A DNA stretch of 20,130 nt, taken from IMG/VR virus record IMGVR_UViG_3300049846_001141, one strand, 5' to 3'. Both the position numbers and the translations under genes were made by a program. Below the pieces are notes generated by a model. That model had not been told where the DNA came from. It made no database searches and saw only the letters and a program-made list of their open reading frames with translations. The DNA comes from an uncultured virus (IMG/VR IMGVR_UViG_3300049846_001141). Taxonomy: Duplodnaviria > Heunggongvirae > Uroviricota > Caudoviricetes. Below, in pieces: positions 11,378 to 14,936 of the stretch. Position 1 is the stretch's first letter. Each line of letters starts with the position of its first letter.

Positions 11378-13774
11378 ATGTCGCAAGGTAAGACGCAGGA
11401 TCTGCTGGCTTTTGTGCGCCAGTTGCCTGTGGGGATGGCGTATGCACCGATCTACGCCAAAGGCGAGAAACTGCCCTCAGGGTCGGTAAGCAAGGGCAAG
11501 ACGCCCACAAAGCGCAGTCATGACGAGGTGATGAGCCCGGCTGACGTCGCTCTGCAGATTGAGCGCCAGCCGAAGGTGTTCCAAGCGGTGGGCGTCTTTA
11601 CGGGCGGTCGCAGCATGGGACTCGTGATTCTTGATGTGGATCGGAATCTCAGTCGTCTCAAAAAGAAATGGGGCGAGTCGCTGGAGGGTGCTCCAGTCGT
11701 TACCTCGACCAAGGCGAACGCGGCGAAGTACCTGTTCCGTGTCCCTGAAAATTTGTGGGGCTCGGTGCAGGGTTTTGGCCTGTCCGATACCGGGGCTGGG
11801 TACGAGGTGCTCTGGGGCCGTCAGGGCGTCATCTACGGGGCTTATCCGGGCTCCAGTGATGGGAAGGCACCAGAAGGTCAATACGGCTTTGAAGGGGACT
11901 TGGAGGCGATTCCAGAGGCTCCTGCGTGGCTGATCGCTGAGATGAAGGAGCGGGCTGGCAAAGGTGTTGAGGATGCCGGCTTCATCAGGAACCGCAAGGC
12001 GCTTGATTTCTCGGATCGAGATCCAGCTGAGGTGGCTGAGATCATTCAGTCGGCACTGAAGGTCATTCCGGGGCAGGGGGCTGGTAGCCGGGACCACTGG
12101 GTCAAGGTGGGGATGGCGATCCACTCGGAGTTGCCGACTGACCTAGGGCTAACGCTGTGGTCTGCGTGGTCTGCGGAAGATCCGGAGTTTTCACAGGAAT
12201 GGGAGGAGGGCAATCCCTGCGAAGCCGCTTGGAGGAGCTTCAGGAAGGGCCCTGTAAGCCTCGGGACGCTCTTCTGGATGGCGGACCAGCAGATGCCTGG
12301 GCGGCTGTGGCTTGCGGAGGATCTGCGGAAGGTTGTTGAGGAGGTTGAGGGCGATAACGTCACGCGGATTCGGCAAGTCGTCATTACCTATGCCGAGGTG
12401 ATCCGCCGGGCCAAGGAGATCCAGCAGATTCAAAACCCGGCGGAAGCGGCGCACGCCATGAATGTTTTGGCGCTGGAAGCTGGGTATCGGGATGCTGGGG
12501 CTCTGGAGCGGTTGCTGATCGCTCAGATGCAGTTCGAGCAGCAAGATGACGAGATGGCGATGGACAACCTGCTCAACAAAGATCTGAAGTTTGAGTACCT
12601 GATCCCAGATCTGCTGCCCTGCCCTGGGACCGTGATGATTCACGGCGCTGGTGGGGATGGCAAATCCATGTCCGCTTGGACGATTGCCAAGCACGTGGCC
12701 CGTGGGATTCCATTCTCCGTGCGCGGGGATCTTGTTCCAGTGGAAGCTGGTCCCGTTTTGATCCTCAACGGCGACCAGTCAGAGGTCCAGGTTCAGCAGC
12801 AGCTTCGGGATCTGGAGTTCCAGCCGTCGGATCCGGTGACCGTGGTAATGGGGTGGGACCTGAACTGGTATTACCGCTTCGTCAAGCTGATCGAGAAGCA
12901 CCAGCCGAAGCTCGTGATCATCGACTCGATCACGGGCTGCAGCAGGGGATCGGCGTTCGACGAAAACAAAAAGGAGTTTGCGAGCCCGATCTACTGGTTA
13001 GCCAACAACAACGGACGCATGTTCCCGGCTTGCACCATCCTGCTGATCCACCACGCCAACAAAACTGGCGGCTTCCGGGGTTCCACGGCCATTAGGGACG
13101 CTGTGGATGAGGTGTGGGGGCTGCGGCGGCCGGACAAAAAACAGGTTGAGCAGACCGGCTACAACGCTCGCCTCATCACCGTGGAGAAGTCCAGGGCTGG
13201 CCGAGATGGCTCCAAGCTGCTGATGAAGCTCGAAAACGACCTCACCTTCTCCCTCGCGGATTACGTGGAGGTCGATACCGACAGCGCCAGCCCGGCATCA
13301 ATCGTGGATCGGGTGCTCCAGCGCCTCAGGGCTGCTCACCCGCGTGCTCTGAGCCGCTCTGACCTCGCTGCGGATGCCCTGTGCGGTGGAAGTGTCGCCG
13401 CTATCGGCAAGGCGCTCCAGAGGCTTGCTTCGCGGGGATTGGTTGAGGTGGTCGGTCAGACCTCCACAGGTGCCAGACCTTCCAATCTGTACCAAGCAAT
13501 TCTCTCGCGTGATATGTGTGTGAAAGTGTGTCCTGAATTGGGAAAACCCAGTCAGGGACTGGAAAGTAAAAAAGGACAGCCCTTGGACGTGTCCTCTTTT
13601 GCTGGGGAGACTGGAGCAAAAAAGGACAGCCCTACCCTGTGTCCCGATTTGTTTCCCAGTCGTACCAAGGGGTTTGGTGAAAGAGGACAGCTTTTTGAAG
13701 GCTCCCCAAGGGATGAACGCTCTCCTGAGGAGTTGGCAAGGCTGATGCAGGAAGCCGCACGGATGTGGGACTGA
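11378..13774 (+). CDS. PrimPol-PriCT2-RecA-like (AAA_25/SF4) primase-helicase
   Basis: N-terminal Prim-Pol (GLVILDVD), PriCT-2 (RDHWVKVGMAIH...LWSAWS), Walker A GAGGDGKS, Walker B VIIDS, LIHHANK/RGSTAIRDAVD, C-terminal wHTH-like region. Confidence 0.9.
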   Translation: MSQGKTQDLLAFVRQLPVGMAYAPIYAKGEKLPSGSVSKGKTPTKRSHDEVMSPADVALQIERQPKVFQAVGVFTGGRSMGLVILDVDRNLSRLKKKWGESLEGAPVVTSTKANAAKYLFRVPENLWGSVQGFGLSDTGAGYEVLWGRQGVIYGAYPGSSDGKAPEGQYGFEGDLEAIPEAPAWLIAEMKERAGKGVEDAGFIRNRKALDFSDRDPAEVAEIIQSALKVIPGQGAGSRDHWVKVGMAIHSELPTDLGLTLWSAWSAEDPEFSQEWEEGNPCEAAWRSFRKGPVSLGTLFWMADQQMPGRLWLAEDLRKVVEEVEGDNVTRIRQVVITYAEVIRRAKEIQQIQNPAEAAHAMNVLALEAGYRDAGALERLLIAQMQFEQQDDEMAMDNLLNKDLKFEYLIPDLLPCPGTVMIHGAGGDGKSMSAWTIAKHVARGIPFSVRGDLVPVEAGPVLILNGDQSEVQVQQQLRDLEFQPSDPVTVVMGWDLNWYYRFVKLIEKHQPKLVIIDSITGCSRGSAFDENKKEFASPIYWLANNNGRMFPACTILLIHHANKTGGFRGSTAIRDAVDEVWGLRRPDKKQVEQTGYNARLITVEKSRAGRDGSKLLMKLENDLTFSLADYVEVDTDSASPASIVDRVLQRLRAAHPRALSRSDLAADALCGGSVAAIGKALQRLASRGLVEVVGQTSTGARPSNLYQAILSRDMCVKVCPELGKPSQGLESKKGQPLDVSSFAGETGAKKDSPTLCPDLFPSRTKGFGERGQLFEGSPRDERSPEELARLMQEAARMWD
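13529..13689. repeat. Dyad-symmetric TGTCC/GGACA array (candidate replication origin)
   Basis: TGTCC 13529, GGACA 13574, TGTCC 13590, GGACA 13624, TGTCC 13640, GGACA 13685; 16-bp direct repeat AAAAAAGGACAGCCCT at 13568 and 13618. Confidence 0.7.
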
Positions 13775-14118: not shown

Positions 14119-14198
14119 TCCCGCCCGTGATCGTGTTCGGGCTGACGTGGCTGCTGGGGATGCTGGCAGTCACCGTCTACCTGACTTTGGTAGCTTGA
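14115..14198 (+). CDS. 27-aa hydrophobic membrane peptide
   Basis: GTGA overlap with the upstream stop, AGGGG RBS-like; MIPPVIVFGLTWLLGMLAVTVYLTLVA. Confidence 0.5.
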   Translation: MIPPVIVFGLTWLLGMLAVTVYLTLVA

Positions 14199-14348
14199 GC
14201 TGGTTCCCGCTCTGCGCCTCGTTCGCATCGGGCACTGGTGCGCGTTGGGCATATAGCCCAGAAGGCGGCCCGGTTCTGGAGGCGTCCGATAACGTCTCCC
14301 CGAATAACACCCTCTAAGCCTCTCAACGATGCTCAAACCTGGGGGTCG
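14197..14348 (+). ncRNA. Putative structured RNA upstream of the tRNA-like element
   Basis: No credible ORF; closing stem GAGCTGG/CCGGTTC (14197-14276), internal hairpin TGGGC-ATATA-GCCCA, hairpin GGAGGCGT-CCGATA-ACGTCTCC (14278-14299). Confidence 0.35.
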
Positions 14349-14350
14349 CT

Positions 14351-14420
14351 GGAAGTGAAGCCAAAGGGAAAGGCACGCGGACAACGCACTCAGTAGCTGG
14401 TTCGAGTCCAGCCGCTTCCT
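14351..14420 (+). ncRNA. tRNA-like RNA lacking a canonical anticodon arm (pseudo-tRNA or t-element)
   Basis: Acceptor stem GGAAGTG/CGCTTCC, D arm GCC-AAAGGGAAA-GGC, T arm GCTGG-TTCGAGT-CCAGC; the 21 nt between D and T arms cannot form a 5-bp stem with 7-nt loop; no encoded CCA. Confidence 0.7.
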
Positions 14421-14429
14421 TTCAAATGG

Positions 14430-14485
14430 GTGCCCGGTGGCCGGTCCTCACGCGGTGCCGGCCTCACCGCTGCCGGGCGCAGCGG
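14430..14485 (+). ncRNA. Compact GC-rich structured element with possible pseudoknot
   Basis: GTGCCCGG/CCGGGCGC outer stem, GGCCGGTCC/GGTGCCGGCC inner hairpin, CCGCT (14467) complementary to AGCGG (14481). Confidence 0.45.
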
Positions 14486-14555
14486 ACGACTGAGATCCGA
14501 GATCTACAGAACCCTTACGATAACGCCCCAAACCCACTGGTGTGACTGGGTTGGA

Positions 14556-14585
14556 GGCATTACATAATTGTAATTATGTTATGCC
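14556..14585. repeat. AT-rich 14-2-14 inverted repeat (operator-like)
   Basis: GGCAT-T-ACATAATT-GT-AATTATGT-T-ATGCC, one mismatched pair. Confidence 0.7.
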
Positions 14586-14611
14586 CACGCCAGCGATTGT
14601 AAAGATGTGCG

Positions 14612-14641
14612 ACAGCCCGGCCTTGACGCTGGGCTGTTTTT
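14612..14641 (+). terminator. Intrinsic terminator closing the non-coding locus
   Basis: ACAGCCCGGC-CTTGAC-GCTGGGCTGT then TTTT. Confidence 0.65.
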
Positions 14642-14696: not shown

Positions 14697-14936
14697 ATGG
14701 ACACGCTGCACACTCAAATCGAAAACACCAAGCTCAGCCCGTGGTACTTCGCGGTCAACTGGGGCATCATCACGCTCCAGCAGAAGATTGCGGAGATGGA
14801 GGCACGCGGCCAAGATCCCATCTACGACATCAAACAGCTGGAGAAGCTCCAGGACTTGGAGCAGTTTCTCAAGATGAGCTGGGACATGTGGCTGGCTCGT
14901 TATGAAACCAGCGAAACTGCACAGGAGGTCAAGTGA
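14697..14936 (+). CDS. Hypothetical protein (79 aa)
   Basis: ATG at 14697 in the frame of track ORF 14607..14936; GTGA overlap with next gene. Confidence 0.75.
   Translation: MDTLHTQIENTKLSPWYFAVNWGIITLQQKIAEMEARGQDPIYDIKQLEKLQDLEQFLKMSWDMWLARYETSETAQEVK

What the first reader, a model, noticed from the sequence alone, without database searches (positions are those of the whole stretch)
14351..14420. Anticodon-less tRNA mimic in the middle of a ncRNA locus
Seen: intact 7-bp acceptor stem, canonical T arm with TTCGAGT loop and a D arm with GG, but A at position 8 and only a 3-bp GCG/CGC mini-stem in place of the anticodon arm. Decay confined to one arm suggests the elbow and acceptor are under selection. 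Known: RNase P, RNase Z and CCA-adding enzyme read the acceptor/T half, while anticodon nucleases and decoding need the anticodon loop. Inference: either a processing tag that releases the flanking structured RNAs, or a non-decoding decoy for tRNA-binding host proteins or defence systems.
Basis: partly seen in the sequence, partly recalled or inferred. Interest (0 to 1): 0.75.

Follow-up and report, generated by a model that had tools for sequence, protein, structure and literature searches.

The report
Phage tRNA look-alike without anticodon
A virus that probably infects freshwater cyanobacteria carries a small tRNA-shaped RNA gene that cannot read codons; it belongs to a large unannotated family in such viruses, and here it probably helps cut free a neighbouring RNA that may disarm a bacterial suicide defence.

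Summary
Window 14351-14420 (+) folds as a cloverleaf: 7-bp acceptor stem, 3-bp D stem, canonical T arm. In place of the anticodon arm it has a 3-bp stem closing a GACAA pentaloop. ARAGORN calls nothing; Rfam tRNA gives 33.1 bits in a sensitive search.

It is not a decaying pseudogene. It belongs to a conserved tRNA-like (TLS) family with at least 113 distinct sequences in viral contigs. Six cultured cyanomyoviruses, including S-PM2, also carry it, unannotated. All helices covary and the loop is GAYAA. Published structural work shows GACAA adopting a GNRA-like fold.

The element starts 4 nt after an Rfam abiF RNA (14310-14346), the antitoxin RNA of AbiF toxin systems. This complete 39.8-kb phage has no AbiF gene. 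In viral contigs, 33 of 96 distinct abiF motifs are followed within 2-9 nt by a tRNA or tRNA-like helix, against 0.6% of control windows.

Best reading (inferred, not shown): host RNase P and RNase Z excise a non-decoding TLS, and its 5' cut also makes the 3' end of the orphan abiF RNA. The conserved mini-arm implies a further, unknown function. No expression data were obtained.

The parts
14204..14233 (+). Conserved block or hairpin that opens the non-coding locus, just after the small ORF that ends at 14198.
   Evidence: The same block (TTCCCGCTCTGC...GCATCGGGC) heads the locus in relatives L403, L404, L405 and L421. Its 9-mer is found in 17 of 80 primase relatives.
14278..14299 (+). Hairpin: 7-bp stem with the 8-nt loop UCCGAUAA.
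   Evidence: Read. A blastn match to the Synechococcus phage S-CBS2 intergenic region covers 14267-14303. The stem covaries with L126 and L256, whose loops are UCCGUUAA and UCCGACAA.
14306..14309 (+). AACA leader directly before the abiF motif.
   Evidence: The same four bases precede the motif in L070, L023, L041 and S-CREM1.
14310..14346 (+). abiF RNA (Rfam RF03085), the antitoxin-type RNA of AbiF systems. It is orphan here.
   Evidence: 52.8 bits against a gathering score of 37; 60.3 bits with my own model R2. No Abi_2 (PF07751) match in the complete 39,837-bp genome.
14347..14350 (+). 4-nt spacer CGCU. The predicted RNase P cut lies between U14350 and G14351.
   Evidence: Spacing is shown; the cut is inferred. 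UCACU follows the motif in 30 distinct viral contexts. tRNAs start 2-9 nt after the motif in 21 of 96 contexts.
14351..14420 (+). tRNA-like RNA (TLS), 70 nt, lacking an anticodon arm.
14377..14387 (+). Mini-arm: 3-bp stem GCG/CGC closing the GACAA pentaloop (14380-14384).
   Evidence: Loop conservation and stem covariation. GNRA-like fold of GACAA: passages of PMC12550061.
14396..14412 (+). T arm, GCTGG-TTCGAGT-CCAGC.
14424..14495 (+). G+C-rich structured block downstream of the TLS; a separate conserved module.
   Evidence: Contigs with unrelated flanks in all four runs laid (X18, X20, X15, X4) carry it. A similar block follows the TLS in L263.
14611..14638 (+). Intrinsic terminator-like hairpin (11 pairs) with a T run. 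Probable end of the non-coding transcription unit.
   Evidence: The next ORF begins at ATG 14697.

Best explanation
The element is a selected gene for a non-decoding, tRNA-shaped RNA. It belongs to a family widespread in aquatic, mostly cyanophage-like viruses. The family keeps the acceptor stem and the D/T elbow, and replaces the anticodon arm with a 3-bp stem capped by a GNRA-like GAYAA pentaloop.

It lies in a mosaic locus of small structured RNAs (about 14199-14640) that is probably transcribed as one precursor. Host RNase P would cut at its 5' end, between U14350 and G14351. RNase Z or exonucleases, then the CCA-adding enzyme, would finish its 3' end after T14420.

The RNase P cut would also create the 3' end of the orphan abiF RNA 4 nt upstream. 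A phage that carries the antitoxin RNA but not the AbiF nuclease could in this way mature that RNA using host tRNA enzymes alone.

The freed TLS cannot decode. Its conserved mini-arm implies a further role of its own, probably as a stable protein-binding tRNA mimic.

Shown: structure, conservation, covariation, the adjacency statistics, and the absence of an AbiF gene. Inferred: transcription, the cuts, antitoxin mimicry by the abiF RNA, and any binding partner.
For: Structure and membership. For the 19-sequence sub-type alignment, 341 of 342 cells pair and covariation is 0.675 against 0.163.

The nearest relative, L126, differs by double changes at acceptor pairs 1 and 3 and a one-sided change at pair 6. 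Its D arm, mini-arm and T arm are identical. Across this sub-type the acceptor sequences differ widely but stay paired. That fits selection for a helix, which RNase P and RNase Z need, and not for a particular aminoacylation identity. Discriminators vary: A 49, T 39, C 19, G 6 of 113.

Family size. There are 113 distinct TLS. A scan with the D arm and T loop fixed but the middle left free gave 120 sites. Their 39 distinct middles are all 24-25 nt; none is a canonical arm.

TLS in relatives of this phage. The TLS occurs at the same locus in 4 of 80 primase relatives: L421, L405, L406, L422. No relative has an ordinary tRNA there.

Genome content. Infernal finds no tRNA or other TLS in the rest of the genome (for the one ARAGORN call, see evidence against). 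A role in supplying codons is therefore unlikely.

Punctuation. Of 96 distinct viral abiF contexts, 21 have an ARAGORN tRNA and 29 an acceptor/T-arm helix starting 2-9 nt after the motif, 33 in union. Control windows in the same loci give 37 and 53 of 8,784. The tRNA identities vary: Ile, Leu, Arg, Met, Ala, Tyr, Gln, Val.

Of 146 TLS loci, 31 hold an abiF-type RNA within 300 nt, all on the TLS strand. In 12 of 20 distinct arrangements the gap is 4-8 nt, in either order. For the window's own sub-type the share is 13 of 26 loci.

The cut site has U at -1 and G at +1. T is the commonest -1 base in the family, 59 of 113. CCA is encoded in only 3 of 113.

Orphan antitoxin. The genome has no Abi_2 match. 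Only 4 of 80 ORFs downstream of viral abiF motifs are Abi_2. abiF RNAs bind and neutralise AbiF, and AbiF processes its own RNA (passages).
Against: No expression, RNA end or cleavage data exist for this element.

The link to abiF is not obligatory. 115 of 146 TLS loci have no abiF RNA within 300 nt. The four relatives with a TLS have none, and 0 of 80 relatives have an abiF RNA. By my criteria, 63 of 96 viral abiF contexts have no adjacent tRNA-like helix. Both elements tend to sit in tRNA arrays, which confounds their co-occurrence.

A pure processing role does not explain the conserved GAYAA mini-arm.

In tRNA arrays the TLS usually sits 3-4 nt before tRNA-Val(tac), in 29 of 126 contexts. 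That tRNA needs no helper.

The window copy has A8, where 99 of 113 family members have T8. This might weaken the tRNA core.

The host is unknown, and whether it has AbiF was not tested. The phage-type abiF variant occurs in only 3 contigs among the species genomes. All 3 are MAG contigs that look phage-derived.

ARAGORN calls one 'tRNA-Stop(tta)' at genome 13369-13445. Rfam does not support it at E 0.01 or below.
Confidence: 0.55

Rival explanations
1. Stand-alone effector. The TLS is mainly a decoy, sponge or tRNA-bodied display of a GNRA-like hairpin for some protein, such as a tRNA-targeting defence factor or a phage regulator. Its position beside abiF only reflects two accessory RNA modules sharing one array.
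For: The loop is conserved and the stem covaries. The family mostly occurs without abiF, including in 4 relatives of this phage. It is kept in six cultured cyanomyoviruses. The GACAA loop of P22 boxB is a protein-binding GNRA-like fold.
Against: No partner is known or predicted. Acceptor stem and discriminator vary freely, so the acceptor end is not read by sequence. When abiF is near, it is on the same strand and in 12 of 20 distinct arrangements only 4-8 nt away. That is tighter than mere co-residence requires. This reading is not exclusive of the best explanation.
Confidence: 0.3
2. An unusual but working tRNA that is aminoacylated and decodes with a non-standard anticodon arm.
For: The Rfam tRNA score is above gathering. 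ARAGORN labels many family members as tRNAs. Length is near-canonical at 70-72 nt.
Against: There is no 7-nt loop, no U33 and no 5-bp stem in any of the 39 distinct middles. ARAGORN's labels are inconsistent across 126 distinct contexts: Leu(caa) 53, none 33, His(atg) 29, ???(ca) 7, ???(gaca) 2, Leu(aag) 1, Arg(acg) 1. Discriminator and first base pair vary.
Confidence: 0.03
3. A decaying tRNA pseudogene of no function.
For: ARAGORN makes no call in the window. The window copy has A8. Most relatives of this phage lack the element.
Against: 341 of 342 cells pair, with 11 of 18 pairs changed on both sides. The truncated arm is the same in 113 distinct sequences from unlike phage types.
Confidence: 0.02
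4. A DNA-level element, such as an attP-like integration core derived from a host tRNA or a recombination hot spot of a cassette locus, and not a functional RNA.
For: The locus is mosaic among relatives. One contig in an RNA-library run joins 14305 to 14430 and so lacks abiF plus TLS. This is weak: the shorter side is 28 nt, at 85% likeness.
Against: Compensatory changes preserve RNA helices, which a DNA site would not require. The family also sits in lytic T4-like cyanomyoviruses.
Confidence: 0.03

Closest known systems
Canonical tRNA (Rfam RF00005), including phage-encoded tRNAs
   Same: Acceptor stem, D arm with GG, T arm with TTCGA, 70 nt. The TLS sits among tRNAs in many phages.
   Different: No anticodon stem-loop, only a 3-bp stem with a 5-nt loop. 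A8 in this copy. No consistent identity elements. tRNA finders skip it or label it inconsistently.
mascRNA of MALAT1 and the MEN-beta tRNA-like element, where RNase P makes the 3' end of the upstream RNA (recalled; no paper read here)
   Same: Works like it, by inference. A non-decoding cloverleaf lies directly downstream of a functional non-coding RNA, so one RNase P cut matures both.
   Different: Those are eukaryotic nuclear lncRNAs. Here it is a phage, the upstream RNA is a 37-nt antitoxin-type motif, and the TLS family also occurs alone.
AbiF toxin / abiF RNA (AbiFr, RCd22) type III-like toxin-antitoxin systems
   Same: The neighbour at 14310-14346 matches the abiF RNA family well above its gathering score. 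In those systems that RNA binds and neutralises the HEPN RNase AbiF (abstract; passages).
   Different: There is no AbiF gene in this complete phage genome. The RNA lies in a tRNA-like context and not upstream of abiF. It is a single motif, not the two motifs of RCd22.
Phage pseudo-ToxI, an RNA antitoxin mimic that lets phage PhiTE escape ToxIN (PMC3475682; search listing and start of abstract only)
   Same: Precedent for a phage carrying an orphan RNA antitoxin as counter-defence. This is the role I infer for the abiF RNA that the TLS would mature.
   Different: A different toxin family. ToxI repeats are cut by ToxN itself, and no tRNA-like element is involved.
P22 boxB hairpin with GACAA pentaloop (PDB 1A4T; passages of PMC12550061)
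   Same: The same five loop letters. The GNRA-like fold with the pyrimidine looped out fits the C/T variation at loop position 3.
   Different: boxB is a nut-site hairpin in an mRNA leader, read by N protein. Here the loop caps a 3-bp stem inside a tRNA body, the closing pair varies, and no N-like protein was sought.
T4 species 1 and 2 stable RNAs in the tRNA cluster, and engineered 'tRNA scaffolds' (both recalled; no paper read)
   Same: tRNA-processed, non-decoding small RNAs encoded among phage tRNAs. In engineered scaffolds a tRNA body is used as a stable chassis with the anticodon arm replaced.
   Different: No sequence relation was tested. The scaffold is man-made.

Membership tests
tRNA (decoding) | 7-bp acceptor stem, D arm with G18 G19, and T arm with TTCRA loop | tested here: met
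   Covariation.
tRNA (decoding) | 5-bp anticodon stem with a 7-nt loop carrying U33 and an anticodon | tested here: not met
   Only a 3-bp stem plus the GACAA loop. Rfam treats the arm as a 16-nt insertion. 0 of 39 distinct family middles is canonical.
tRNA (decoding) | Recognised by tRNA finders or models | tested here: inconclusive
   ARAGORN: none. Rfam: 33.1 bits against 29, but only in the sensitive run. Five other family members were not listed at E 0.01 or below: L277:1501-1572, L023:519-590, L011:636-707, L405 and L421.
tRNA (decoding) | Aminoacylation and use on the ribosome | not testable with these tools
   Variable discriminator and first pair argue against one identity.
tmRNA (tRNA-like domain) | Acceptor/T-arm domain joined to a tag reading frame and pseudoknots | tested here: not met
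   ARAGORN's tmRNA search found none. No Rfam tmRNA hit. The two acceptor strands lie only 55 nt apart.
GAYAA mini-arm TLS family (defined here) | Acceptor, D and T arms, plus a 3-bp stem closing GAYAA and an 8-9-nt linker; 70-72 nt in total | tested here: met
   The window copy scores 90.3 bits with model R1, but it is one of R1's four training sequences. Independent members are L421 at 88.5 bits, L405, L406 and L422 at 52, L011 at 40.8 and S-CREM1 at 38.7. Alignment.
RNase P/Z-processed tRNA-like 3'-end signal (mascRNA type) | A functional RNA ends a few nt upstream of a cloverleaf | tested here: met
   abiF ends at 14346 and the TLS starts at 14351. The arrangement recurs.
RNase P/Z-processed tRNA-like 3'-end signal (mascRNA type) | Demonstrated RNase P cleavage and a released small RNA with CCA | not testable with these tools
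   No usable RNA reads were obtained; see Tried and rejected.
AbiF toxin-antitoxin system | abiF RNA motif present | tested here: met
   RF03085, 52.8 bits.
AbiF toxin-antitoxin system | Adjacent Abi_2 (HEPN) toxin gene | tested here: not met
   No PF07751 match in the 39,837-bp genome at E 1 or below. No Abi_2 among the 27 window ORFs scanned.
boxB/N antitermination site | GNRA-like pentaloop hairpin | tested here: inconclusive
   The loop letters match P22's. The fold itself was not modelled.
boxB/N antitermination site | boxA/boxB nut context and an N-type arginine-rich protein | not tested
   No search was made. The element sits inside a tRNA body, not in an mRNA leader.

The most novel reading that the evidence does not exclude
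Aquatic phages carry RNA-only counter-defence cassettes matured by the host's own tRNA enzymes. One component is an orphan abiF antitoxin RNA that would silence AbiF-type HEPN suicide nucleases. Beside it sits a 'natural tRNA scaffold': a nuclease-hardened tRNA body that displays a boxB-like GNRA-fold hairpin where the anticodon loop was. This second RNA would act as a stable decoy or adaptor for a still unknown tRNA-binding defence or regulatory protein. The TLS family, present but unannotated in model cyanophages such as S-PM2, would then be a new class of phage effector RNA.
Probability: 0.2. Interest if true: 0.85.

Novelty: new variant of a known kind. Interest (0 to 1): 0.64.

Why it matters
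If the reading holds, three things follow.

First, annotation. A common phage RNA gene is missed or mislabelled. It is unannotated in all 10 matching GenBank phage records, which represent six cultured cyanophages. ARAGORN's labels for it are inconsistent.

Second, mechanism. tRNA punctuation would be a general way for phages to mature foreign small RNAs without their cognate nuclease. Here that RNA is an antitoxin-type RNA whose toxin family is the proposed ancestor of Cas13 (review passages).

Third, an open question becomes testable. The family keeps exactly the part of a tRNA that processing enzymes read, and seals the part that anticodon nucleases and the ribosome read. S-PM2, S-CREM1 and S-SZBM1 offer culturable systems in which to ask what such an RNA does.

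Tried and rejected
RNA evidence. One run search and one laying of X18, X20, X15 and X4 were made. No contig of the three RNA-labelled runs covers 14318-14422. All four runs are kept as assembled contigs, so they could not show RNA ends in any case. This says nothing either way about expression.

Joints. In X20, joints 14305>14430, 14185>14424 and 14215>14434 hint that relatives lack abiF plus TLS. The shorter sides are 24-34 nt at 85% likeness, so I count them only as a weak hint.

A promoter I withdrew. TTGACA-17/18-TATAGT/TATAAT lies just before the TLS in L251, L255, L265 and L269. Those bases lie in covarying hairpins right after a wcaG RNA, so I withdrew the promoter reading.

Host AbiF. 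The single genome-contig scan, for the phage-type abiF variant, gave only 3 MAG contigs that look phage-derived. I had no handle on a cyanobacterial genome, so whether likely hosts carry AbiF is untested.

ARAGORN's 'tRNA-Stop(tta)' at genome 13369-13445 has no Rfam support at E 0.01 or below. I treat it as a false call.

The window TLS has no blastn match in the phage collection at E 0.05 or below. Only the other sub-type is in cultured phages.

The first MAFFT alignment (A1) shifted L011 by one column, so I did not use it for counts.

Ideas considered but not tested: that the D arm resembles tRNA-Gln/Glu, and a link to glutamyl-tRNA reductase.

Literature. Searches found no paper describing this TLS family or the abiF-tRNA adjacency. 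The S-CREM1 paper notes the abiF RNA without giving a function or a tRNA link (passages). Subscription journals and supplements were not seen.

Earlier notes of this scan hold nothing for this genome or this sequence.

Full report
WHAT IS THERE

The window is the right-hand 20,130 bases of a 39,837-bp virus record with direct terminal repeats, rated complete.

It encodes capsid, scaffold, portal and large terminase on the minus strand. On the plus strand it encodes a primase-helicase (11378-13774), a dCTP deaminase-like protein and a family A DNA polymerase. The nearest cultured relatives by portal protein are cyanophage S-2L (37% identity) and Synechococcus siphoviruses S-H1 and KBS-S-2A (about 32%). 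DNA runs that hold the stretch are mostly freshwater. A cyanobacterial host is therefore likely, but this is inferred.

Between a small ORF ending at 14198 and an ORF starting at 14697 lie about 500 non-coding bases. They end in a terminator-like hairpin at 14611-14638.

THE OBSERVATION

The isolated 70-mer has that cloverleaf as its minimum-energy fold, at 0.84 of the ensemble. The energy z-score of -1.92 alone is unremarkable.

ARAGORN calls nothing in the window. Rfam's tRNA model reaches 33.1 bits (gathering score 29, E 9.3e-5) in a sensitive search, and treats the anticodon arm as a 16-nt insertion.

The 37 bases at 14310-14346, ending 4 nt before the element, are an abiF RNA: RF03085, 52.8 bits against a gathering score of 37.

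NOT A LONE DECAYED COPY

Two viral contigs found only through their abiF motif, L070 and L011, carry the same architecture after the motif. Their mini-stems are GCC/GGC and CCC/GGG, and the loop is again GACAA.

A metagenome scan added L126, a close relative of the whole locus. Against the window it has double compensatory changes at acceptor pairs 1 and 3 and a one-sided change at pair 6. Its D arm, mini-arm and T arm are identical.

A covariance model built from four sequences then found unannotated copies in Synechococcus phage S-CREM1 and in L023, L041 and L009.

In all I count 113 distinct sequences.

Those scans fixed the loop letters, so I repeated one with only the D arm and T loop fixed. 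It gave 120 sites with 39 distinct middle regions, 38 of 25 nt and one of 24 nt. None has a canonical anticodon arm. The loop is GACAA in 33, GATAA in 4, AACAA in 1 and GTCAA in 1. The mini-stem is fully paired in 37 of 39, with at least 8 stem sequences.

On an ungapped MAFFT alignment of 19 distinct sequences of the window's sub-type:
- 341 of 342 pair cells are standard pairs.
- 11 of 18 pairs change on both sides.
- Covariation is 0.675, against 0.163 in shuffles (0 of 500 reach it) and at most 0.108 for slid partners.

The D stem, the loop and two T-stem pairs were fixed by the retrieval pattern. The acceptor stem, the mini-stem and three T-stem pairs were not, and those are where the changes fall.

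Blastn finds the other sub-type in 10 GenBank records of six cultured cyanomyoviruses: S-CREM1, DSL-LC03, S-PM2, S-RIM8, S-RIM32 and S-SZBM1. No feature is annotated under any of the 10 matches. In S-PM2 it lies 4 nt before a tRNA inside a tRNA cluster.

ARAGORN's labels over 126 distinct contexts are inconsistent: Leu(caa) 53, no, His(atg) 29, ???(ca) 7, ???(gaca) 2, Leu(aag) 1, Arg(acg) 1.

THE MINI-ARM

The pattern G-A-Y-A-A on a freely covarying 3-bp stem matches a known structure. A survey of GNRA-like motifs reports that the GACAA pentaloop of the phage P22 boxB RNA (PDB 1A4T) adopts a GNRA fold. The cytosine is looped out and touches the N peptide (passages of PMC12550061). That fits C/T variation at the third loop letter.

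The anticodon arm has therefore been replaced by a compact, probably very stable capped hairpin. It has not eroded. Whether a protein or another RNA reads the loop is unknown.

THE LINK WITH abiF RNA

According to a preprint and a review, abiF RNAs are the antitoxins of AbiF (Abi_2, HEPN RNase) systems. They bind and neutralise the toxin, and the toxin processes its own RNA (abstract; passages).

This phage has the RNA but no Abi_2 gene anywhere in its complete genome. Only 4 of 80 ORFs downstream of them are Abi_2.

Among 96 distinct contexts with at least 100 nt downstream:
- 21 have an ARAGORN tRNA starting 2-9 nt after the motif.
- 29 have an acceptor/T-arm helix starting there.
- The union is 33.
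- Other 8-nt windows of the same loci give 37 and 53 of 8,784.

The tRNAs have many identities: Ile, Leu, Arg, Met, Ala, Tyr, Gln, Val. Several of the elements are degenerate in other ways. In S-CREM1 and S-SZBM1 the spacer is the same 4 nt as in the window.

Seen from the TLS side, a model of the abiF motif finds such an RNA within 300 nt in 31 of 146 TLS loci, and in 13 of 26 loci of the window's sub-type. It is always on the TLS strand. In 12 of 20 distinct arrangements the gap is 4-8 nt, with abiF either before or after the TLS.

RELATIVES OF THIS PHAGE

Eighty viral loci encode a primase 72-96% identical to the window's. By the table, 67 of them extend at least 700 nt beyond the primase gene.
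- None has an abiF RNA.
- None has an ordinary tRNA in the locus. The single ARAGORN call, in L407, lies inside the primase gene.
- Four have the TLS at the same place: L421 with the window's core but a different, fully paired acceptor stem, and L405, L406 and L422 with the other sub-type.

The locus is a mosaic of small structured modules behind a shared opening block. In the rest of this genome, Rfam finds no tRNA at E 0.01 or below and model R1 finds no further TLS. ARAGORN's one 'tRNA-Stop(tta)' call has no Rfam support.

HOW IT MOST LIKELY WORKS

Shown:
- a conserved, non-decoding tRNA-shaped RNA gene;
- strong selection for its helices and its loop;
- repeated same-strand placement a few bases from abiF RNAs and tRNAs;
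- an orphan abiF RNA.

Inferred: the locus is transcribed as a precursor. RNase P cuts between U14350 and G14351. U at -1 and G at +1 are what I recall as the preferred context for the bacterial enzyme, and T is the commonest -1 base in the family, 59 of 113. The 3' end would be made after T14420 and CCA added, since CCA is encoded in only 3 of 113.

That one cut would also give the abiF RNA its 3' end. This is attractive because a phage without AbiF cannot rely on the toxin to process the RNA.

By analogy with pseudo-ToxI of phage PhiTE, the abiF RNA would act as an antitoxin mimic (PMC3475682; listing and start of abstract only).

I put this combined reading at 0.55.

It does not explain the family as a whole. 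Most members have no abiF neighbour, and the conserved mini-arm points to a role of the mature TLS itself. A working tRNA, a pseudogene or a DNA-level site are each unlikely.

COMPARISON AND NOVELTY

It works like the tRNA-like 3'-end signals of MALAT1 and MEN-beta, and resembles the non-decoding stable RNAs of the T4 tRNA cluster (both recalled, not read here). It is not a member of the decoding tRNAs, because the anticodon arm test fails. It is not a tmRNA, and the locus is not an AbiF system, because there is no toxin gene.

My ten literature searches found no description of this family or of the abiF-tRNA adjacency. The S-CREM1 paper only reports the abiF RNA.

Earlier notes of this scan describe other phage tRNA look-alikes with sealed pentaloop arms: e1-3438164 (CAAAA loop) and e1-5392784. 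They suggest a wider theme. I did not test them.

I rate the element a new variant of a known kind, with interest 0.64.

LIMITS

- No expression or cleavage data were obtained.
- The host and its AbiF content are unknown.
- The helix detector is home-made and misses degenerate elements.
- Co-occurrence of the TLS and abiF RNA is confounded by both living in tRNA arrays.

Noticed in passing
window 14278-14299: Hairpin with a 7-bp stem and the loop UCCGAUAA. The stem covaries with L126 (loop UCCGUUAA) and L256 (loop UCCGACAA), and the stretch matches an intergenic region of Synechococcus phage S-CBS2. It is a separate conserved small RNA module with no Rfam family.
   Followed up: partly
window 14424-14495: G+C-rich structured block. 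It recurs in contigs with unrelated flanks in all four runs laid (X18, X20, X15, X4), and a similar block follows the TLS in L263. It looks like another mobile RNA module.
   Followed up: partly
window 14204-14233: Conserved block that opens the non-coding locus in this phage and in relatives L403, L404, L405 and L421. Its 9-mer occurs in 17 of 80 primase relatives. Behind it the content differs from phage to phage.
   Followed up: partly
window 14557-14585: A+T-rich near-palindrome in an otherwise 56% G+C window. The only promoter-like hit of the region lies on the minus strand at 14603-14576.
   Followed up: no
L026, L029, L035, L046, L049, L085, L278-L280 (after their abiF motifs): A second kind of odd tRNA-like element follows abiF RNAs. 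It is 69-70 nt, with a reduced D arm and an anticodon arm that can be drawn as a 6-bp stem with a 5-nt loop (NNATA). ARAGORN calls these Ile(gat) or Met(cat).
   Followed up: partly
L005, L007, L019, L025, L032, L039, L064, L072, L119: A third kind follows abiF. It has an acceptor stem and a T arm with the loop TGCAATT, and a single-stranded AAGACAGCG stretch where the D arm should be. ARAGORN makes no call.
   Followed up: no
L223, L227, L239, L257, L270, L271: abiF-type RNAs with an extra small hairpin of about 12 nt inserted in the conserved loop region. They score 28-34 bits with my model R2. In three of the loci this RNA ends 4 nt before a TLS.
   Followed up: partly
G000 contig C1 13369-13445 (outside the window): ARAGORN calls a 'tRNA-Stop(tta)'. 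Rfam gives no tRNA match there at E 0.01 or below, so it is probably a false call.
   Followed up: yes
L277 (S-PM2, NC_006820 163158-166229): The feature table returned for this stretch lists no tRNA. Rfam finds 9 tRNAs in it, and two of them overlap annotated hypothetical ORFs.
   Followed up: no
L251 405-512 (minus strand): A wcaG RNA (RF01761, 47.6 bits) lies about 40 nt upstream of a TLS on the same strand. This is another case of a catalogued cyanophage RNA motif followed by the TLS.
   Followed up: no
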